DNA from: Nannocystis pusilla
GTDB lineage: Bacteria; Myxococcota_A; Polyangia; Nannocystales; Nannocystaceae
Reading direction: 5' to 3'
Assembly (NCBI RefSeq): GCF_026626665.1
Contig: NZ_JAPNKE010000002.1
Span: forward strand, 1,485,204-1,549,203
DNA: 64,000 bases
Position numbers and translations under genes: made by a program
Shown: positions 32,048-46,851 of the stretch, one piece after another
How positions within the stretch are numbered: position 1 is the stretch's first letter
Layout: each line of letters starts with the position of its first letter
Notes under the pieces: model-generated
Database searches by the model: none
Seen by the model: only the letters and a program-made list of their open reading frames with translations
Told to the model about the DNA's origin: nothing

Positions 32048-32162
32048 GCTCGGCGAGGTCGAACGAGGCCGTCGCGGCCGCTCTTGGCTGCGGTCGGCGA
32101 GCTCGATCGCGTGGGGGCGGCGAGGCCGGCGGCCGCGGGGCGGAAGACGGTTGTATGGTTTT

Positions 32163-32215
32163 TAAGACATGCTTGAATGGACATGTTGACTGGGACATGT
32201 CCTGGAGGTCATGCG
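32163..32215. repeat. 14-bp periodic repeat array, about 4 units
   Basis: aagacatgcttgaatggacatgttgactgggacatgtcctggaggtcatgcgg. Confidence 0.65.
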
Positions 32216-32490
32216 GCGAGGCGGCGGGCGCGGGGTCGCTCGATGTCGGAGCGGCGCGGGCTGCTCAGGGCGGCGTGGGCGTGAGCGCCGGGGCGAGGCG
32301 GGCTCGCGCGGGCGCGCGAGGCGGGGAGAAGTGGGTCGATGTCGGGGCCGAGGCGCCGGCGGGCCGTCCGCCGACCGCGAGGCGGCGGGGGCGGACTGGC
32401 AGGTGCGGGGTGCCTCGATAGCCTTCGCCGAGGCGCTGGCGACGTCGCGGGGCGAGGCGCGAGCGCGGGGCGGCCGGGGAGAGGACACGC

Positions 32491-32866
32491 CATGGAGATT
32501 CGTCGCTGTCGTCGCGGGTTCGCGTTCGTGGGACTGCTGCCATTGATGGTCTCGCCGGGCTGCGAGGAGGTGCAGACATTCGGCGACGACGCGGACGAAT
32601 GGGACGGGACCGCGACGAGCGAGGCGGAGCCGGCGGCCGCGCGCGGCGGGAGCTCGATGCAATCGCAGCACGGCCTGACGTGCAGCAACCGCTGGGCCGA
32701 GGATTGGGGGGCCACGAATTGCGCCGGCACGCCCGGGGTGAAGTGGCGCCTGAAGGTGCGCTGCTGGTGGCACGGCGAGCGTCTGGGGCCGTGGCGGTCC
32801 GGTCCGGGCTCGGACCGCATCACGTGCAGCCTCGGCGCGCAGCGCTCGATGGTGGTGTGGGGCTGA
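32491..32866 (+). CDS. small Cys/Trp-rich putative lipoprotein
   Basis: ATG at 32491 (MEIRRCRRGFAFVGLLPLMVSPGC…). 125 aa. Confidence 0.4.
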
Positions 32867-32936
32867 TCCGCGCGGAGGCGTCCGCGCAGGGGCGGGTGGC
32901 CTGGTTGCGCGCGACGCCGGCGGGTACCATGCGCCG

Positions 32937-34623
<1,687 letters not shown>

Positions 34624-34859
34624 CGCGCGGGCGAGGATAGCAAGGTTCGACGTTGGGGAGCCTTTCGGGTGGCTCATGACGGCGATAAACGGTGTTCCGG
34701 GTGGTGAACTGGGCATGATTTTGGCGGTAAGAGCTTCGACGATAAGAACCATAATTGTAGAACCGCTGAGCGGTGTTCAGTCGGGCCGGTGTCTATACCC
34801 CGTCTAGCTCGCACGCTGATGTCTGAAGCGGGAGCCTTCGGGATCAAAGCGGCACGCAG

Positions 34860-34888
34860 GTGACAAACAGAGGGGCAATCTGTACGCT
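34860..34888 (+). promoter_or_regulatory. candidate sigma70-like promoter for the island operon
   Basis: TTGACA (34860-34865), a 17-nt spacer, then TACGCT (34883-34888), 9 nt before the ATG at 34898. This implies a near-leaderless transcript. Weak evidence. Confidence 0.2.
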
Positions 34889-34897
34889 CGGGCGAGC

Positions 34898-35452
34898 ATG
34901 TCCGAGTCCCAGGAGTGCCTTAAACATCTTCACCAACTGTTCGTCTCCTTGTTCTCCGAAGACGAGCTGAGAAGATTCGTGGCTTACGGTCCCAGCGGGA
35001 CGCAACTCTCAATTGCTGCCGGGACCTGAAACTACCCTCGACAATTGGCTTATTCGGCGATAGACGTTCTTTTCCGACACAATCTGATAGATTTGCATCT
35101 CTTCGATCGACTTTTGGCTGATTTTTCGAGGCGAGGTAATGACATCTCCAATGTGGCGCAAGAATGGGGGATCGTGCTCAAGCGCGCTGAACAACAAATA
35201 ACGCCTTCGCCGCCCGAGGCCGAAGCGCTCAAGACGGTCACCAAACTACCTGCTGACGAGGTCGAAACGAACCGACGACATCTTTCTCAGCGACATGCCG
35301 CATTGCTGGTCGAGCGGGCCCGAGAGTTGGAAGACGGTGGCGACGAAACGAGTCTGCAAGACGTCCTCGGCGAATCGAAGAAGCGAATCGCGCGATGCGT
35401 GCCGGTCCTCAGGTCCAAGTGGGTACCGTTCTCGGTCACCGCTACAAACTGA
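34898..35452 (+). pseudogene. island ORF A: Death-like / effector-associated-domain (EAD)-like N-terminal module interrupted by an in-frame TGA, plus a helical linker
   Basis: The ATG at 34898 encodes MSESQECLKHLHQLFVSLFSEDELRRFVAYGPSGTQLSIAAGT, followed by TGA at 35027-35029. The same frame continues as …QLAYSAIDVLFRHNLIDLHLFDRLLADF…, so the helical-domain signature (L-x2-LF-x3-FS-x-DELRRF … L-x3-L) spans the stop. The frame ends at 35452, overlapping the kinase start. Confidence 0.4.
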
Positions 35453-36177
35453 AAAAGATCCTTGGGAGTGGCGGTGGGGCCGTTGTATTCGAAGCCTTCG
35501 ATTGGCATGAAAAGAAGACGGTTGCGGTCAAAGTCTTGCGCCCAGCTCTCGGAGATAACGGGGAGATCCGGGATCGGTTTTTCCGAGGTGCGCGAAGTAT
35601 GGATGAACTAGCGGGCCATGGGGTTGTCCGCGTGACGGATCGAGGCGGATCGGACCGAGGGTATCACTATTTTGCGATGGAACTGCTCCACGGACGCTTT
35701 CGCACCGTGATCGAAAATGAGGTCCTGAGCTTGCGAAACCGCCTAGACTTGGTCAGGCAAGTCGGAAAAACGCTCGAGGCAGCCCATGCCCGGGGCATCA
35801 TCCACCGGGACATCCGACCGGACAATATCTTGATGGGCGGCGACAGAAAGCCGTACTTGACGGACTTTGATATCGCGCTCTCTCTGCATGAGACTCGATA
35901 TACGCAAATCGGCTTGATGGGAAATATAGTGTATTCTGCTCCTGAGCAGCTGAAGGATCCGCGCGACGCCACCGAGCGCTCCGACATCTACTCGCTGGCT
36001 ATGTTGGCCGTTTACGCGATCCTTCGCGAGGACCCAGATCTTGCCGCCTTTCAGCGTGATCGTTACCTCTTTATTGAACATCTCAACTGTCCCCTAGAAG
36101 TCAAGCAACTGTTGGCTCGAGCTCTCTCTGCGCCCGCGCGACCGGTTCTACGCGTCGGTCTCGGACTTCTGCAGTGA
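35395..36177 (+). CDS. island ORF B: Hanks-type Ser/Thr protein kinase
   Basis: ILGSGGGAVVFEA (Gly loop), VAVKVL, HRDIRPDNILM, a DFD in place of DFG, YSAPEQL, and DIYSLAMLAV. AT-richer codon usage than the host. Confidence 0.8.
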   Translation: MRAGPQVQVGTVLGHRYKLKKILGSGGGAVVFEAFDWHEKKTVAVKVLRPALGDNGEIRDRFFRGARSMDELAGHGVVRVTDRGGSDRGYHYFAMELLHGRFRTVIENEVLSLRNRLDLVRQVGKTLEAAHARGIIHRDIRPDNILMGGDRKPYLTDFDIALSLHETRYTQIGLMGNIVYSAPEQLKDPRDATERSDIYSLAMLAVYAILREDPDLAAFQRDRYLFIEHLNCPLEVKQLLARALSAPARPVLRVGLGLLQ

Positions 36178-36249
36178 CTTGGACCTGGCGCTCCCGGCTA
36201 TCGAGGTCGAGTTGGAGGGGGTCACAGTTTTGTCTCGTTGGACCGCTTG

Positions 36250-37197
36250 ATGCGGCTCTCAGACAAGGAATTTGACGCCCAGGTTGCGCGGGTGGAGGCA
36301 GACATCAATGGTTCTCCGGCCGGACGGCAGTGGCAGGCGCGGCGTGGCCCTCGTAGCCTTCGTGTCGTGGACTTGCTCTCGGCTGCCCGTACTTATGGTA
36401 CAAACGTAGAATTCGAAGGCCGCGAAACTGACCCTGTTTTTTCGGCTACGAGGAGATTAGAGAAATCGAGCGATTTGGATTGGGAGCGCATGTTTGAGAT
36501 TCTATGCGAATTAGCGCCTGGAGACTTTCAGGCTTTCCTGTTTGTTTTCCCTCGCGGAAACGAAGTGAGTGATCCTGGTGCAGCGAGGATTCACCGAGTA
36601 AAGCAAATCTTACAACTGGCGAGGTCTTCCGGCCCAAGCGTGCTCTATGGACTCGTACGGGAGTTCAGGCAACGATTTGAGCTCTTTCCGGACCGGATCG
36701 TAGCCCAACATCCGATGGCTCAGGAATTCTGGGCGCGAGCGCGTTTGCGCAGTGCCGTCGACGAACTGGATGCTGCCATTCCAGATGCTAGTGAGGCCTG
36801 TTGGCAGATGAGACATGCGATCTCGTCCAGAGAGTACGGAGATCTTGAACAATTATTGCGAAATCTGCAGAGGTGGCGAACTTACCCGTTGCAGGCTGCG
36901 CAATGGATCGGCCGCGTTCACAGCCTGCTCATGGAAGTGCCAAAGGCTCTTCGGCGAGGTCTTCGCCGGGAGTGCCGCCACTCTCTTTTCCGGCACGCCG
37001 AGATGTACCGCACTCTCTGCCGTCTCGAGGCGGACGAATGGGAGAGGGTGCGTTCCGAATTCGTTATAGTAAGCGCGAGTCCGGACTTCGCCTGTAGGGC
37101 CGTGGAAGTACAGGTTTTTATGTCGCAAGTTGTTTCTGTAAGTTGCGATGCTCTGTATGGGCGCCTTAAAAGAACTCTGCTTACGAGTTGCCCCTGA
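36250..37197 (+). CDS. island ORF C: hypothetical protein with a central EAD/Death-like module
   Basis: …WERMFEILCELAPGDFQAFLFVFPRGNEVSDPGAARIHRVKQILQLARSSGPSVLYGLVREF… matches the 'F-x2-LvF-x-L … ip … a-x3-ra-x2-Ll-x-wa-x3-g … L-x3-L' EAD-type pattern. The C-terminal half is alpha-helical and unknown. The frame is the same as the kinase, after the kinase TGA. Confidence 0.45.
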   Translation: MRLSDKEFDAQVARVEADINGSPAGRQWQARRGPRSLRVVDLLSAARTYGTNVEFEGRETDPVFSATRRLEKSSDLDWERMFEILCELAPGDFQAFLFVFPRGNEVSDPGAARIHRVKQILQLARSSGPSVLYGLVREFRQRFELFPDRIVAQHPMAQEFWARARLRSAVDELDAAIPDASEACWQMRHAISSREYGDLEQLLRNLQRWRTYPLQAAQWIGRVHSLLMEVPKALRRGLRRECRHSLFRHAEMYRTLCRLEADEWERVRSEFVIVSASPDFACRAVEVQVFMSQVVSVSCDALYGRLKRTLLTSCP

Positions 37198-37267
37198 TTA
37201 GATCTGAACTGCATCCGTCTGAGATTGACGCACTTATTGACGAGCTTGAGGGAATATTCCAACGAGA

Positions 37268-37588
37268 TTGATTATGTATTGCGATCGGCAGTGGGATGAG
37301 AGTAAATCTTGGAAGGAAATACTAAAGGACATCCGGGCTTTCGACGTGGACCGGCCGCAAAGGAGTTATATTATGCTGCGCCAGGAATTCGTAGGATCTT
37401 GTGGCTTGGGAGATCCGCTCCGAGCTCTCACGGGCGAGACAGCGAAGGAGAAAAGTCGAGGAATTTTCGACGTTCTACGGAAAAGGTACACGATCGAGGA
37501 CATGTACCGGGTCATTGCGGCACTACAAATCCCCTCATGGTACCGGCAGCCGGGGAAATCTCGTTCCTCGACTTGCTCGACAGCCTGA
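37268..37588 (+). CDS. island ORF D: small Death-domain-like protein
   Basis: 106 aa. …SWKEILKDIRAFDVD…SYIMLRQEFVGSCGLGDPLRAL…KSRGIFDVLRKRYTIEDMYRVIAALQ resembles a six-helix Death-domain pattern. An alternative frame continues to 37698. Confidence 0.35.
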   Translation: MIMYCDRQWDESKSWKEILKDIRAFDVDRPQRSYIMLRQEFVGSCGLGDPLRALTGETAKEKSRGIFDVLRKRYTIEDMYRVIAALQIPSWYRQPGKSRSSTCSTA

Positions 37589-37670
37589 CTTCCTTTTTGA
37601 TGTTTCTCAACATACCCGGCGCATGCGAAGCTCACGCCGCGATGGAGCCTGATGGATTCGTCGGCTGGAT

Positions 37671-39194
37671 TCACCTCCAGCGAGTTGTTCCATCGTAGCC
37701 GACGGGCGGAAGGGAAGTGGCTCTCGTCGATGCGGCGCGAGCGATCAGCCCGGCGGGGGTGACGCTCTTGAGCTGGCCGCCGGTCATGTCGGAGTAGACG
37801 TAGTGGTCGCCGGCGACGGGGATGTTCTGCATCGCCGGGACGTTGAGCGGGTCGATCTTCCAGGCCCAGCCCTGCTGGTCGACCAGCCACACGAAGCCGT
37901 CGACGTCGACGCTGACGCCGATCGGGGTCGAGCACTGGGCGAGGGTGTGCTGGGCGACGAGGGTGCGGGTGGGGACGTCGATCTCGACGAGGCCGCACGG
38001 GCTGTTGGAGGCGACCCAGGCGTGGTCGTCGTGGTCGATGGCCATGCCGCGGTGACAGGCGTTGGTGCCGGCGACCGAGATCCACTGGCTGGTGGCGACG
38101 TCGTAGGTCGAGACGGGACCGGAGCAGCCGGCGAGCCACGGGTTGCCGTTGCGATCGACGGTCATGCCGTAGGTCTGGATGTTGGAGGGCTGGGGGATCC
38201 GCGTGAGCGTGATCGGGTTCTCGTTGGCGTTGACGCGCGCGAGCTTGCCGCGCAAACCGGTGAACCAGGCGTTGCCCAGCGGATCGAGGGCGCCGCCGTA
38301 AGGGGCGTAGCCGCTGCCGTTCCACGCGACGGCCTCGAGCGACTGCTCCATCACGCCGGTGGCGCCGTCGAGCCGGACCATGTTGGCAGAGCCGGCCTGG
38401 AGGGCGCCGAAGCCGAGCCAGACCTTCTGGTTCTTGTAGGTGCAGGTGGCCTTGTCGTAGTCGCCGATGGTCCAGGTGATGCCGCGCGGACCCTCGATGT
38501 ACTGGCCCGACCAGTTGGCGTGGACGAGGGTCCACACGACGCACTCGTCGGTGCCCCACGGCTTGATGTCGGCGACGCTGGTGGAGGTGGTGATCTGGCC
38601 GTCGCCGTTGAAGTCGATGCAATCGGCGATGTTGGCGGCGACGGCGGTGGAACGCCCGGTGCCGCGCGCGTTGACGACGACGAACCGTCCGTCGCCCGAG
38701 ACGGCGGTGCGCGAGACGCTCTCGGCGCCGCCGCTCGGACCGGTGAGGTAGCGCGCCTCCTCGACGAGGGTGCGCGTGTTGATCTTGGAGACGAGGCCGT
38801 CGCTGGTGGCGGGGATCCAGATGAAGCTCTCGTCGATGTCCATGTCGCCCGCGCAGCCCATGCCGCCGTCAGGCGTGACGCCGAGGTCGAACTTGGGGCC
38901 GCCGTTGGTGGTCATGGTCATGCCCGACATCGAACCGTTGCTGGTGGTCGGCGGGTCGCCGCTGGCGCTCTCGGTCTGACCGACGGTGCCGTCGGTGCCC
39001 TCGCTGGCGCTCATCGAACCCCCCTGCGTGGGGTCCGTCATGGTGGTCTCGGGCGGCAGGGTGAGGCTGCCGATGCTGGTCGCCACCGTGGTCGGAGCCG
39101 TGGCGCTGGCCGAGTCGGCGCGCCCGCTGTCACCGCAGGCGACGAGGAGACCGGCGACGGCCATGGATGCGACCGAAAAACGAGGGGAGACCAT
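37671..39194 (-). CDS. hypothetical lipoprotein, possibly beta-propeller-like
   Basis: Lipobox VAGLLVAC, then a Thr/Ser-rich linker and Trp/Gly-rich repeated segments. High GC again. Its 3' end abuts the right edge of the island. Confidence 0.5.
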   Translation of the reverse strand: MVSPRFSVASMAVAGLLVACGDSGRADSASATAPTTVATSIGSLTLPPETTMTDPTQGGSMSASEGTDGTVGQTESASGDPPTTSNGSMSGMTMTTNGGPKFDLGVTPDGGMGCAGDMDIDESFIWIPATSDGLVSKINTRTLVEEARYLTGPSGGAESVSRTAVSGDGRFVVVNARGTGRSTAVAANIADCIDFNGDGQITTSTSVADIKPWGTDECVVWTLVHANWSGQYIEGPRGITWTIGDYDKATCTYKNQKVWLGFGALQAGSANMVRLDGATGVMEQSLEAVAWNGSGYAPYGGALDPLGNAWFTGLRGKLARVNANENPITLTRIPQPSNIQTYGMTVDRNGNPWLAGCSGPVSTYDVATSQWISVAGTNACHRGMAIDHDDHAWVASNSPCGLVEIDVPTRTLVAQHTLAQCSTPIGVSVDVDGFVWLVDQQGWAWKIDPLNVPAMQNIPVAGDHYVYSDMTGGQLKSVTPAGLIARAASTRATSLPPVGYDGTTRWR

Positions 39195-39784
39195 GGGGCG
39201 ATGAACGCACGATCACCCTCATGAGGGCAAGTACCCGACCGAGCCGATCGAGACGGGGAGGTTCGGATCCATCGTCGGGGGAGCGCCGAGGGGCCTCGCA
39301 TGCGGGGGTCCCGGGGTCGCGTCGGCGACGCGCTAGCGACGAACAAGTGTCCGGCGAGCGATACGAGACGAGAGGCGGGGTCGCGCGGCGACGGGCGCCA
39401 TGCGAATGCGCAGAGAGGCGAGGGCCGGGCGAATGCGGGGAGGCGGCGAAAGAGGCCGTGAGAGGGGTTCAGGAGGGCGTCTGGCGAGGTTCGAGGAGAG
39501 GGTGGCGCGGTCCCGGCGGCAGAGTGATTGCAGCGAGGGCGCACGGTCGACGCATTGCGGGCCGGGACGGTGGGTCGGCGTCGGGAGCGCGGTCGGGCGC
39601 GGGGATCTCCGCAGGGGCTGCCCGCCGGCGTGGGTCGCGCCCAGGGCGAAAATCCCGGGGTCGATCGCGGGGCCGTCGGGGCCGGACGACCCGGGAGCCG
39701 CCGCGGGGCAGGGGATCGTCCGCGCGGCCCGGGTCCGCGGGCGGCTGCAGGGGCGTGCATTTCGGGCGCGGCGCCGCGGGCGGG

Positions 39785-41433
39785 ATGGGTATCATCGCGC
39801 CGATGTCGAGCTCTCGCCGCTCCTTCCTCGCGCTCACGGGGCTCTGTGGGGCCGAGGCGCTGCTCCACGGCCCGCGCGCGGCATCGGCCGGACAGCAGCC
39901 GAGCCGGATCCCGGCGCCGAAGTCGGCGCCCGCGAGCGCAGACGCGGGCATGGCCCTGCTGGCGGCGAGCCGCTTGCTGGCCGACGAGTCGCTGCTGCGC
40001 ACGGCGCTCGCGGCGGCGACGAAGGCCGGGGCGAGCTACGCCGACGCGCGCCTGGTGCTGATGCGCCGCGAGCGGGTCGGGGTGCGCGACGACCACGTGA
40101 GCGGGATCGGTCGCAGCGAGGACTACGGGGTCGGTCTGCGGGTGATCGCGGACGGCGGCTGGGGCTTCGCGGCGACGGCCGAGCGCAGCGCGAAGGCGGT
40201 CGAGGGGATCGCCAGGGCGGCGGTGGCGATGGCCCGCCAGAGCGCGCTGCTGATGCCGCAGCCGGTGACCCTGGCGCCGGCGCCGGTGCTGCAGGGCGGC
40301 TGGGTGTCGCCGTTCCAGGTCGACCCGTTCTCGATCGCGCCGGCCGAGAAGGCGGAGCTGCTGCTGGCGGCGGCCCGCGCGGCGCTGGCGGTGCCCGGGG
40401 TGGCGCACGTGGACGCGAGCGTGGCGTGCGTGCGCGAGGAGAAGCTGGTGATGACGAGCGAGGGCTCGCGGGTCCACCAGATCTTCTTCCGCGTGATTCC
40501 GGGGCTGACCACGACGGCGATCGATCGCCGGCGCGGTCGCTTCGCGGGGCGCGACCACGAGGTGGCGCCGATGCTGGCGGGCTGGGAGCACGTGACCGCG
40601 GCCGACCTGGTCGGCAGCGCGCCGAAGATCGCCGAGGAGGCGCTGCAGAAGCTGCACGCGGCGCCGGCGGTGCCGGGCAAGAAGCACGCGATCCTGGCGC
40701 CGTCGAACCTGTGGCTGACGATCCACGAGAGCATCGGCCACTCGACGGAGCTCGACCGGGCGCTCGGCTACGAGGCGAACTACGCCGGGACGAGCTTCCT
40801 CGGGCCCGACAAGGCGGGCAAGGTCAAGATCGGCAGCGAGATCGTGAACCTGGCGGCCGACCGCACGCAGCCGGGCGGTCTGGCGACGACCGCGTGGGAC
40901 GACGAGGCGGTGGCGTCGCAGCGCTGGGACCTGGTGAAGAAGGGGACGTTCGTCGGCTGGCAGACGACGCGCGACCTGGCGGCGGCGGCCGGCGAGCCGG
41001 CGAGCCGCGGCTGCAGCTACGCCGACAGCTACGCGAGCGTGCCGTTCCAGCGCATGCCCAACGTGAGCCTGCAGCCGGGCACCGAGGGCTACACGACGGA
41101 GGATCTGATCGCGGCGACCGACGACGGGGTGCTGATCACGGGCCGCGGCAGCTGGTCGATCGATCAGCAGCGCTACAACTTCCAGTTCTCGGGCCAGTTC
41201 TTCTGGGAGATCAAGCACGGGCGGTTGACGCGGCCGCTGCGAGACGTGGCGTATCAGGCCAACACGGTCGAATCTGGAGCTCGTGTGACATGCTCGGAGG
41301 GACAGACACGTACCGCCTCGGCGGCAGCATGAGCGACGGCAAGGGCGAGCCGTCGCAGAGCAACGCGGTGAGCCACGGGTGCCCGCCGGCGCGCTTCGTC
41401 GTCAACATCCTCAACACCGGGGGTGACAAGTGA
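39785..41433 (+). CDS. tldD: TldD family metallopeptidase with a Tat signal; apparent frameshift near 41265
   Basis: Tat motif SRRSFLALTG. TldD family similarity through …FQFSGQFFWEIKHGRLTRPLRDV. The conserved C-terminus (…SSCDMLGGTD…GSMSDGKGEPSQSN…PARFVVNILNTGG) lies in a second frame ending at 41433. Confidence 0.7.
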
Positions 41434-45776: not shown

Positions 45777-46851
45777 TCACCGCGGGTCTCCGAGGCGCAA
45801 TTCGAGGCCGAGGAGCAGGCGCAGGCTCGCAGGCGCGCTGGTGAACAGGTTGACCGGCTCCGGGGTGTCCGCGAGGTCGAAGCTCGGGGCGGCCAGGCGG
45901 ACGAGGCCCTGGGCGGCCAGGCTGAGGCCGAGGAGCCGGTGAAACCGCCAGGTGGCGCCGGCCGAGACGAGCACCGCCGCCCACAGCCCGGTGGCCGCCC
46001 GCGCGCCCGGACCGCGACCCTGGCCGCGCAGGCCGCCGAGCTCGGCGCCGCCGCACAGCGGGAACTCGAAGCGGCCGCGGGCCAGGCGAGCGCAGCCGCG
46101 AGCGCCGCCGCCGAGCAGGTAGACGCGGACCTGGTTGGGCAGGCGCGCCTCGGTCTGCGGGACGAGGTGGACGCCGTGGAACTCGAGGCGAGCGCGGCGC
46201 CAGAGGACGCCGGCGACGAGCTCGAGCGCGGCGGTCGGCGCGGGGACGGTGCCGACCTCGAAGCCGGCCGAGACGCAGCAGCGCGCCAGGGCCTCGCTTG
46301 CGCGGGGGCGGGGCCGGGGCGAGCGGCTCGTCGGCGGTGAGAACGGCGGGCTCGGGCGCGGGCGCGGGCGACTGGACCGGGGCGACGGGGTCGTCGACGA
46401 CGGACTCGGGGGCGAGCGCGAGGGGCGGGGCGGGTTCGGGGCCGGGGCTCGGCTCGGTCGGCGGCTCCGGGTCGGTCGGCAGGGGCTCGAGCTCCGGCTC
46501 GACCTGATCGGTCGACCGCTCGGCGGCGGTGGGATCGAGCGCGAGGGCGGTCAGGAGCGCGGCAGCGTCGACCAGGGCGGCGCAGCGGCGAGCGCTGAGG
46601 CGCCGGGTCTGGGCGTGGCCGCCGACGGCGAGGCGCAGGTCGAGGTGGTACTGCGCAGCGCCGTCCCGCTCGACCCGCCCGACCAGAGAGAGCTCGTCGG
46701 CTGCGGGCTCACGGCCGAGGCGGCCGGCGATCGCCACGGCCAGCGCGCGGCGATCGGGGCAGCCCGCCGGCGCCTGCCACTCGATCGCGCCGGCAGACGG
46801 GGGCTGGGGCACCTGGAACGCGAGCACTGCGGCGAGGAGCGCGGACGGCAT
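45777..46851 (-). CDS. hypothetical secreted or outer-membrane protein (probable frameshift)
   Basis: The N-terminal frame (from 46851) has a signal-like start MPSALLAAVLAF… and a Pro/Glu-rich linker. The C-terminal frame ending at 45777 shows alternating hydrophobic beta-strand-like segments (…FEFPLCGG…TWRFHRLLGLSLAA…LGLELRLG). Confidence 0.3.

What the first reader, a model, noticed from the sequence alone, without database searches (positions are those of the whole stretch)
34898..37588. Island encodes a Hanks kinase surrounded by three Death-like / EAD-like helical modules but no NTPase
ORF A (34898-35452) begins with a pattern characteristic of effector-associated domains of the Death-like superfamily, L-x2-LF-x3-FS-x-DELRRF … L-x3-L. 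ORF C (36250-37197) contains F-QAFLFVF-PRGNEVSDPGAARIHRVKQILQLARSSGPSVLYGLVREF, which fits the EAD1-type pattern F-x2-LvF-x-L … ip … A-x3-RA-x2-LL-x-WA-x3-G … L-x3-L. ORF D (37268-37588) resembles a canonical Death domain. Between A and C sits an apparently active Ser/Thr kinase with intact GxGxxG, VAVK, HRD, APE and DxWSxG-like motifs. In published descriptions of bacterial conflict systems these adaptor domains couple effectors to STAND NTPases (NACHT or NB-ARC). Here the NTPase is missing and a kinase is the only enzymatic component. That makes this either a minimal kinase-centred signalling or immune module not yet described, or the eroded remnant of a larger system.
Basis: partly seen in the sequence, partly recalled or inferred. 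Interest (0 to 1): 0.8.

Follow-up and report, generated by a model that had tools for sequence, protein, structure and literature searches.

The report
Decayed foreign Death-like kinase operon
A 3.1-kb piece of foreign, low-GC DNA in a Nannocystis chromosome carries the frameshift-riddled remains of one gene that once joined a small Death-fold-like adaptor to a conflict-system type Ser/Thr kinase, followed by two orphan reading frames, so it is most likely a dead relic and not a new NTPase-free immune module.

Summary
"ORF A" is not an open frame: it has an in-frame TGA at 35027-35029. Homologues show that ORF A and the kinase were one gene: an ~85-aa helical domain (here "X"), a coiled-coil linker and a Hanks kinase. 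That gene is now broken by at least four frameshifts. The kinase also departs from 22 of 83 clade-conserved residues, against a median of 3 in relatives.

The kinase belongs to a large clade fused to TIR, PNPase, CHAT or X at the N-terminus and to FGS/C-lectin, WD40 or EAL at the C-terminus. These architectures are already described for conflict systems of multicellular bacteria.

The island (34631-37740, 56% vs 73% GC) replaces host genes that two Nannocystis relatives carry at this site.

Verdict: an eroded member of a known kind, of low to moderate interest.

The parts
34631..37740 (.). Foreign low-GC island (3.1 kb, GC about 0.56, GC3 about 0.6) that replaces host genes.
   Evidence: Nucleotide homology with Nannocystis sp. 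RBIL2 and N. punicea stops at 34630 and resumes at 37737-37741. Those relatives carry 2.6-2.8 kb of host-GC DNA there, encoding a TPR/membrane protein and an AAA+ ATPase. GC profile. GC3.
34898..35008 (+). Gene 1, piece a (frame 2): start codon and helices 1-2 of Death-like domain X (..LHQLFVSLFSEDELRRFVAYGPSGTQ..).
   Evidence: Translation. It aligns to the domain just upstream of the kinase in P0239, P0217, P0228 and P0240.
35010..35042 (+). Gene 1, piece b (frame 3): QLLPGPETTLD, the conserved LPG loop of domain X. Two frameshifts bracket it (about 35003-35010 and about 35042-35045), and they create the apparent in-frame TGA at 35027.
   Evidence: Three-frame translation. The frame-3 peptide aligns with LPGAPVAFDEL, LPGSSVALDEL and LPEGSTNLSQL in the homologues.
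35045..35392 (+). Gene 1, piece c (frame 2): helices 3-5 of domain X and the coiled-coil linker. It is annotated separately as hypothetical protein OV079_06760.
   Evidence: P0001 is identical to it. tblastn places the X and linker region of P0239 at 34886-35368 in frame 2 and its kinase in frame 1. The linker matches the clade consensus.
35395..36133 (+). Gene 1, piece d (frame 1): Hanks-type kinase domain. The annotated ORF runs to 36177. A 1-nt deletion near 35392 separates it from piece c.
   Evidence: Pfam Pkinase 96.7 bits. PADLOC PD-T4-6 163 bits. All homologue HSPs end at 36126-36129. It deviates at 22 of 83 conserved columns.
36134..36250 (+). Gene 1, piece e (frame 2): the true kinase C-terminus (..PRDRFYASVSDFCSDLDLAL..), reached after a 1-nt insertion in a CCC run. 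Its stop is TGA 36248-36250.
   Evidence: The repaired tail aligns to the end of P0003 (FCDALRSAM). The stop overlaps the ORF C start as TGATG.
36250..37197 (+). ORF C: an intact 315-codon ORF, predicted all-alpha, an orphan, with its start coupled to the gene 1 stop.
37188..37698 (+). 3' region with short overlapping ORFs in three frames: a 27-aa frame-3 ORF (37188-37271), ORF D (37268-37588, frame 2) and a 129-aa frame-1 ORF (37309-37698). Possibly a further decayed gene.
   Evidence: ORF lists. No family, PDB or homologue hits. Coding signal is weak.
37671..37740 (-). Chimeric 3' end of the host 507-aa gene, read out of island DNA.
   Evidence: Orthologues are 481-482 aa and end ..SVTPPPG. 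The window copy continues for about 23 more codons into the island.
34631..34752 (-). Chimeric 5' extension of the host 274-aa membrane-protein ORF, read out of island DNA.
   Evidence: The N. punicea orthologue is 235 aa, and nucleotide homology ends at 34630.

Best explanation
The island is a horizontally acquired, now largely dead remnant of a small conflict-system operon.

Gene 1 originally encoded one protein of about 450 aa. It had three parts: an N-terminal five-helix, Death-fold-like adaptor (domain X, not covered by Pfam); a conserved coiled-coil linker; and a Hanks-type Ser/Thr kinase. The kinase belongs to a clade whose other members carry TIR, PNPase, CHAT or X at the N-terminus and FGS/C-lectin, WD40, EAL or a second kinase at the C-terminus.

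Inferred mode of action in intact relatives: the kinase is the central switch. It couples a sensing part (a C-terminal domain or a partner protein) to an N-terminal effector, or, in X-bearing members, to an adaptor that recruits effectors through domain-domain contacts.

In this genome gene 1 carries at least four frameshifts and many substitutions at conserved kinase positions, so it is a pseudogene.

ORF C (intact, start coupled) and the ORF D region are lineage-specific partners of unknown fold. ORF C may still be translated. Neither can be called Death-like.

Shown: foreign origin, the single-gene ancestry of A and the kinase, the frameshifts, clade membership and partner domains, and the orphan status of C and D. 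Inferred: Death-like fold of X (moderate support), adaptor role, immune function, loss of function.
For: - Foreign origin: GC 0.56 vs 0.73 and GC3 about 0.6 vs above 0.88. The island replaces host genes present in RBIL2 and N. punicea.
- One gene: P0239, P0217, P0228, P0240 and a second L004 protein align across ORF A residues 9-158, including the frame-3 LPG segment, directly upstream of their kinases. tblastn splits a single homologue between frame 2 (34886-35368) and frame 1 (35386-36129).
- C-terminal frameshift: the repaired tail aligns to the end of P0003, and its stop overlaps the ORF C ATG.
- Decay: 22 of 83 conserved columns deviate, against a median of 3 in 149 relatives, including Gly-loop F->G and HRDxK->R. 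Frameshift density is about 3 per kb, against about 0.12 per kb in compared host genes.
- Clade context: of the 58 closest members, 19 carry TIR_2, 10 FGE-sulfatase, 6 PNP_UDP_1 and 5 CHAT. A TIR-kinase-kinase gene lies next to SIR2/AAA_22 and TIR genes. PADLOC PD-T4-6 and mad6 models match the kinase.
- Literature: EAD/Death-like adaptors fused to S/T kinases and scattered in genomes (PMC7159879, PMC8195603); STK-CLec proteins and kinase-regulated conflict systems (PMC7517822, PMC10907252).
Against:
- No Pfam EAD or Death hit. A profile of X finds no Death-domain chain in PDB.
- Two host genes in the window also carry indels relative to three relatives, so some island indels could be assembly errors.
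- ORF C is intact despite the decay next to it (P about 0.06 under equal indel rates), which hints at retained function.
- No experimental evidence ties this kinase clade to immunity.
Confidence: 0.75

Rival explanations
1. The indels are assembly errors. In the real genome gene 1 is an intact X-coiled-coil-kinase gene, and the island is a live three-gene module (X-kinase, ORF C, ORF D region) acquired recently.
For: - Host genes in the same window show a 1-nt and a 2-nt deletion relative to three relatives, so the assembly or the strain is indel-prone.
- Two of the island shifts lie in short repeats (GCGCG, CCC).
- ORF C is intact, and its start is coupled to the repaired stop.
- GC has not drifted towards the host value, which suggests recent arrival.
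Against: - At least four shifts in 1.35 kb, against about 0.12 per kb in host genes. Poisson P is about 2e-5.
- Two of the shifts are not in homopolymers.
- The 22 of 83 deviations at conserved sites are substitutions, which indel errors cannot explain.
Confidence: 0.1
2. One reading: a functional, minimal, NTPase-free immune module in which an active kinase is flanked by three Death-like or EAD adaptors that assemble by homotypic contacts.
For: - By eye, the motif shapes in ORF C and ORF D resemble EAD patterns.
- The kinase motifs are present.
Against: - Gene 1 is frameshifted.
- No Pfam EAD or Death hit for A, C or D, even at E<=10.
- A, C and D are not similar to each other.
- hhalign of the X profile against C and D gives probabilities of 0.1% and 0.2%.
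- The X profile finds no second copy in the 64-kb window.
- The ORF C model shows no Death-fold enrichment.
Confidence: 0.04
3. An ordinary signalling kinase locus unrelated to conflict or immunity. The kinase clade serves regulatory signalling, as proposed for cyanobacterial STK-CLec proteins, and X is a generic helical linker.
For: - Vallota-Eastman et al. interpret STK-CLec proteins as regulatory tuning (PMC7517822).
- One X-kinase is fused to EAL, a c-di-GMP phosphodiesterase.
- None of these proteins has been tested in defence.
Against: - 30 of the 58 nearest members carry TIR, PNPase or CHAT domains.
- Their contexts include SIR2/AAA_22 and TIR genes, and a plasmid-like mobile element.
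- Patchy distribution, foreign GC and a variable genomic slot.
Confidence: 0.1

Closest known systems
EAD / bacterial Death-like adaptor-effector proteins of conflict systems (Kaur, Burroughs, Iyer, Aravind 2020/2021; PMC7159879, PMC8195603)
   Same: - A small non-catalytic helical N-terminal domain fused to an S/T kinase.
- The same domain appears in other architectures: X-TM, N-domain-X-kinase-FGS and X-kinase-EAL.
- It occurs in a multicellular bacterium (a myxobacterium).
- Such genes are often located away from any core NTPase.
   Different: - X matches none of the Pfam EAD models, nor Death, DED or CARD models.
- X lacks the bDLD3 signature: Trp in helices 2 and 4, and RxD before helix 6. 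This is read directly from the sequence.
- No cognate second copy exists in the window.
- The gene is decayed.
[TIR/PNPase/CHAT]-kinase-[FGS(C-lectin)/WD40] proteins, including STK-CLec targets of diversity-generating retroelements (PMC7517822, PMC10907252, PMC8195603)
   Same: - The same kinase clade: bit scores of about 380-740 to the clade profile built from the island kinase, P0003 and P0005.
- The shared pre-kinase coiled-coil linker and a clade-wide DFD motif.
- The N-terminal slot is occupied by interchangeable effector or adaptor domains.
   Different: - Gene 1 of the island ends right after the kinase, with no FGS, WD40 or other sensor domain.
- An unrelated orphan ORF C follows instead.
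- No DGR parts are nearby.
PD-T4-6 (single-gene Ser/Thr kinase anti-phage system) and the MADS kinase MAD6, as modelled in PADLOC and NCBIfam
   Same: The kinase domain scores 163 bits against PD-T4-6 models and 139 bits against mad6, above the generic Pfam Pkinase score of 97 bits.
   Different: - The match covers the kinase domain only.
- The NCBIfam MADS6 score for relative P0239 (134.6) is far below the 460-bit cut-off.
- No MADS partner genes are present.
- The gene is broken.
STAND/NLR-like tripartite immune proteins (Avs, bNACHT)
   Same: The same logic of N-terminal effector or adaptor, central switch and C-terminal sensor, seen across the kinase clade.
   Different: The central module is a kinase, not a P-loop NTPase. 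There is no NTPase in the island or in its immediate host flanks.

Membership tests
Death-like superfamily (DD/DED/CARD/PYD) - ORF A N-terminal domain X | A compact bundle of about 80-100 aa with Death-fold topology (classically six helices). | tested here: inconclusive
Death-like superfamily - ORF A N-terminal domain X | Sequence-profile match to Death, DED, CARD, PYD or bDLD models. | tested here: not met
   No Pfam hits at E<=10 for X or for six homologues. A profile of X against PDB sequences finds no Death-fold chain.
Death-like superfamily / EAD1 - ORF C | Profile or structural match of residues about 78-150 to EAD1 or Death-like models. | tested here: not met
Death domain - ORF D | Profile match to Death (PF00531), or a six-helix fold. 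| tested here: not met
   No Pfam hit at E<=10. No PDB sequence hit. hhalign against X gives probability 0.2%.
Effector-associated domains (EAD principle) | A small non-catalytic domain fused terminally to varied effector or signalling domains. | tested here: met
   X lies upstream of kinases that carry FGS, EAL or nothing at the C-terminus. It also occurs at the N-terminus of X-TM proteins.
Effector-associated domains (EAD principle) | A second, cognate copy of the same domain on a core component (NTPase, VMAP, GAP1), in the operon or elsewhere in the genome. | tested here: not met
   The X profile finds only the ORF A pieces in six-frame translations of the 64-kb window. No partner copy was seen in the called genes of loci L003-L008 and L020. 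The rest of the N. pusilla genome could not be searched.
Hanks-type Ser/Thr protein kinase | Pkinase profile match above the curated cut-off, with catalytic motifs. | tested here: met
   PF00069 scores 96.7 bits against a 31.7 cut-off. GxGxxG, VAVK, HRD..N, DFD and APE are present.
Hanks-type Ser/Thr protein kinase (functional gene) | An uninterrupted reading frame and conservation of clade-invariant residues. | tested here: not met
   Frameshifts near 35392 and near 36133 flank the domain. 22 of 83 conserved columns deviate, against a median of 3 in relatives.
STAND/NLR-type conflict system | A P-loop STAND NTPase (NACHT or NB-ARC) in the protein or the operon. | tested here: not met
   There is no NTPase domain in island ORFs or in the flanking host genes.
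PD-T4-6 defence kinase | Match to PADLOC PD-T4-6 models as a stand-alone intact kinase gene. | tested here: inconclusive
   The best model scores 162.8 bits over the kinase domain only. The gene is not intact, and these models are broad kinase models.

The most novel reading that the evidence does not exclude
Domain X may be a previously unclassified Death-fold adaptor family. Together with the TIR-, PNPase- and CHAT-bearing relatives, it would define an NLR-like architecture in which a DFD-type Hanks kinase with a conserved coiled-coil neck replaces the STAND NTPase as the central switch. If the island's indels turn out to be assembly errors, the locus would be a live split version of this architecture, with ORF C and ORF D as new partner proteins.
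Probability: 0.15. Interest if true: 0.55.

Novelty: new member of a known kind. Interest (0 to 1): 0.25.

Why it matters
As it stands the locus is a genomic fossil. It matters mainly as a caution, and as a pointer.

The caution: a kinase annotated as intact and a neighbouring "hypothetical protein" are really fragments of one dead gene.

The pointer: a helical adaptor domain that is not in Pfam, sitting on a large and little-studied clade of TIR-, PNPase-, CHAT- and adaptor-linked kinases. Intact members of that clade are better subjects than this island for testing whether a kinase can stand in for the NTPase switch in bacterial NLR-like immunity.

Tried and rejected
**Searches for ORF C and ORF D that found nothing**
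- ORF C against 5.8 G proteins, plasmids and phages by tblastn, and PDB sequences. PDB gave only a weak TPR-like hit with no qualifying stretch.
- ORF C and ORF D against Pfam, NCBIfam and PADLOC.
- ORF C and ORF D against all fetched relatives and loci.
- ORF C and ORF D against profiles of every N- and C-terminal domain cluster of the kinase clade.

**Other negative tests**
- The idea that A, C and D are paralogous modules: BLASTP and hhalign are negative.
- X against the EAD7 domain of P0052: probability 1.7%.
- Island DNA against plasmids: no match.
- Flanking repeats, att-like sites and tRNAs: none convincing.
- Promoter and terminator scan: at chance level.
- The 330-aa gene downstream of X-kinase-FGS in L020 is unrelated to ORF C.

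**Collection scans and look-ups**
- Genome scan for X: the 7-sequence alignment was too divergent to use. The 3-sequence alignment gave no confirmed hits.
- Exact look-ups of window proteins found no contigs.
- The AFDB Foldseek library was unavailable.

**Readings rejected**
- A simple nonsense mutation at 35027. A double frameshift explains it better, because the frame-3 LPG peptide aligns to the homologues.
- The weak ORF C match to the kinase C-lobe of P0125 (pairwise E 0.001). It is not significant after multiple testing.
Full report
**Source and setting.** The window is from Nannocystis pusilla. ORF A's second half and the kinase ORF are identical to NCBI proteins from an 11.9-Mb contig, OV079_06760 "hypothetical" and a "serine/threonine-protein kinase". 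The host is about 73% GC, with GC3 of 0.88-0.98 in its genes. The region 35-38 kb drops to about 56% GC, with GC3 of about 0.6. The immediate neighbours are ordinary host genes: a hybrid histidine kinase, membrane proteins, a secreted 507-aa protein, and TldD and PmbA. No NTPase lies adjacent.

**Island limits.** A scan with the flanking 507-aa protein recovered the syntenic locus in five other Nannocystis species. Nucleotide homology to RBIL2 and N. punicea ends at window 34630 and resumes at 37737-37741. The foreign segment is therefore 34631-37740. In those two relatives the slot holds 2.6-2.8 kb of host-GC DNA that encodes a TPR/membrane protein and an AAA+ ATPase. In N. exedens and N. radixulma the slot is nearly empty. 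The island thus replaced host genes in a variable region. The ends of both flanking host ORFs are chimeric, read out of island DNA. I found no att-like repeats or tRNA genes.

**Check of the observation.** All quoted peptide strings exist. However, ORF A (34898-35452) contains an in-frame TGA at 35027-35029. Pfam recognises only the kinase (Pkinase, 96.7 bits). ORFs A, C and D give no EAD, Death or other meaningful hit, even at E<=10.

**ORF A and the kinase were one gene.** The closest kinase relative, P0003 (42% identity), is a TIR_2-coiled coil-kinase protein. A profile built from the island kinase, P0003 and P0005 was searched against 1.84 G representatives and returned a large clade scoring 380-740 bits.

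- Several clade members align to ORF A directly upstream of their kinase domains, over residues 9-158: P0239, P0217, P0228, P0240/P0271, P0233 and a second gene in L004.
- The alignment holds only if a frame-3 peptide, QLLPGPETTLD (35010-35042), is spliced in. It matches the conserved LPG loop of the homologues (LPGAPVAFDEL and similar). The TGA is therefore the by-product of two frameshifts, not a point nonsense mutation.
- tblastn places the X and linker region of one homologue in frame 2 (34886-35368) and its kinase in frame 1 (35386-36129). That locates a third shift near 35392, where the sequence is GCGCG.
- All homologue HSPs stop at 36126-36129. A fourth shift lies in a CCC run near 36133. 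Beyond it, frame 2 reads PRDRFYASVSDFCSDLDLAL, which aligns with the C-termini of P0003 and P0005.
- That repaired frame ends in TGA at 36248-36250, overlapping the ATG of ORF C as TGATG. This is a classic arrangement for translational coupling and independently supports the repaired frame.

**Evidence of decay.**

- The island kinase deviates at 22 of 83 columns that are at least 85% conserved in 149 relatives, whose median is 3 deviations. Examples are Gly-loop GGF->GGG, HRDxK->HRDxR and activation-segment TGGT->TRYT. One of the 22, R418F, is a one-residue alignment offset and not a real change.
- DFD in place of DFG is clade-wide (97%), so it is not a lesion.
- As a control for assembly quality I compared host genes with their orthologues. 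Two host genes in the window also carry indels relative to three relatives: a 1-nt deletion at about 41273 in the TldD-like gene, and a 2-nt deletion at about 46276. Some indels could therefore be assembly artefacts, or this strain may accumulate them.
- The density in gene 1 (at least 4 in 1.35 kb) is still about 25-fold higher than in the compared host genes (Poisson P about 2e-5). Indel errors also cannot explain the substitutions.

**Domain X.**

- A single-sequence AF2 model of the repaired 101-aa N-terminus is moderately confident: pLDDT 76.8, pTM 0.68, five helices.
- Foldseek against PDB finds nothing significant.
- No Pfam EAD or Death model matches X or six homologues. Only one member touches EAD2, at E=0.25.
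- A profile of X finds no Death-domain chain in PDB. hhalign against an EAD7 domain gives 1.7% probability.
- X also occurs at the N-terminus of predicted membrane proteins (L016, L018).
- In P0239 and P0217, X sits between an unclassified N-terminal domain of about 200 aa and the kinase.
- X behaves like an EAD-type adaptor, but it is not a member of any curated family. No second copy exists in the window.

**ORF C and ORF D.**

- ORF C (36250-37197) is a real-looking 315-codon ORF: it has coding-like GC1>GC2, and an open frame of this length is unlikely by chance at 56% GC.
- ORF C has no detectable relatives. Searches of 5.8 G proteins, plasmids, phages, PDB, Pfam, NCBIfam and PADLOC, and of all domain clusters of the kinase clade, were all negative. 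The 5.8 G search did not even return ORF C itself, so the source annotation does not call it.
- The 3' region holds three short overlapping ORFs in three frames, with weak coding signal. This resembles the frame-hopping pattern of gene 1 and may be another decayed gene.
- ORF D has no profile or PDB hit.
- A, C and D are not similar to one another, and C and D do not match the X profile. The claim of three Death-like modules is therefore unsupported for two of the three.

**The kinase clade.**

- N-terminal regions of the 149 best hits cluster into a TIR group (62 members), PNP_UDP_1 (15), CHAT/AAA_35 (11), an unknown domain (10), X (5) and singletons.
- Among the 58 closest members, Pfam finds TIR_2 in 19, FGE-sulfatase (FGS/C-lectin) in 10, PNP_UDP_1 in 6, CHAT in 5 and WD40 in 3. 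Many members carry tandem kinase domains.
- All share a conserved pre-kinase coiled-coil linker.
- Genomic contexts vary. The two X-kinase(-FGS) loci L003 and L004 both carry an AAA-ATPase_like/PDDEXK_9 gene downstream, and L004 also has a DDE transposase. X-kinase-EAL sits on a plasmid-like element. TIR-kinase-kinase lies next to SIR2_2/AAA_22, AAA_22 and TIR_2 genes.
- PADLOC's PD-T4-6 and mad6 kinase models match better than the generic Pkinase model.
- These architectures are already in the literature. [quoted passage not shown]
- The lack of an adjacent NTPase is therefore not unusual.

**Conclusion.** The best-supported reading (about 0.75) is a recently acquired but decayed operon. Its first gene was an X(Death-like)-coiled coil-kinase of a conflict-system clade. 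ORF C and ORF D are orphan partners of unknown fold.

Rival readings:

- Assembly errors hide a live module (about 0.1).
- An ordinary signalling kinase locus unrelated to conflict (about 0.1).

Novelty is limited to one more, broken member of a known kind, plus an adaptor domain that curated libraries do not yet cover.

Noticed in passing
window ~41273 (TldD-like gene, 39707-41430) and ~46276 (364-aa gene on the - strand, 45780-46851): Two host genes carry indels relative to three other Nannocystis genomes. One is a 1-nt deletion (GAAT-CTGG vs GAATTCTGG). The other is a 2-nt deletion (GC--AG vs GCGGAG). Each shifts the frame. They are either real pseudogenisation in this strain or assembly errors.
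   Followed up: partly
window 32100-37740 compared with L009-L013: The slot between the 507-aa secreted-protein gene and the hybrid histidine kinase varies among Nannocystis species. RBIL2 and N. punicea have a TPR/membrane protein and an AAA+ ATPase. N. exedens and N. radixulma lack these and the two membrane-protein genes. N. bainbridge has unrelated genes.
   Followed up: partly
window 36250-37197: The intact 315-codon ORF C was not recovered even as a self-hit in the 5.8 G protein collection. The two neighbouring fragments (P0001, P0002) were. The source annotation apparently does not call ORF C.
   Followed up: no
P0122-P0270; alignment A4: The whole kinase clade has DFD instead of DFG (97%) and a conserved pre-kinase coiled-coil neck (..VD.EIL.LRRQLREGGQLRAGD.LG.GRY..). 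Many members are tandem kinases with up to eight kinase-like stretches.
   Followed up: partly
P0239 1-200, P0217 1-210, L004 3510-4100: A conserved N-terminal domain of about 200 aa (motif VWLPLMGTGGGxLS) precedes domain X in three X-kinase proteins. It has no Pfam match. The motif looks macro-like or TIR-like by eye only.
   Followed up: no
L004 3510-9284: Two tandem paralogous X-kinase-FGS genes lie near a DDE transposase. The first copy is called as 679 aa plus a separate overlapping 267-aa FGE-sulfatase ORF, which suggests a frameshift there too. A conserved 230-aa gene of unknown function lies upstream in both L003 and L004.
   Followed up: no
L008 10001-18845: TIR-kinase-kinase (P0123) is followed on the same strand by a SIR2_2/AAA_22 protein (657 aa) and an AAA_22 protein (753 aa). 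A TIR_2 protein lies nearby on the opposite strand. This looks like a defence-island arrangement.
   Followed up: no
L005-L007: X-kinase-EAL (P0271) sits on a plasmid-like or integrative element with ParA, a primase (Zn_ribbon_DnaG), DUF3987, DnaB_C and ParB genes. The same contig was recovered from several samples.
   Followed up: no
L016 1466-2383; L018 462-1007: Domain X also occurs at the N-terminus of short proteins, followed by a predicted transmembrane helix and no kinase.
   Followed up: partly
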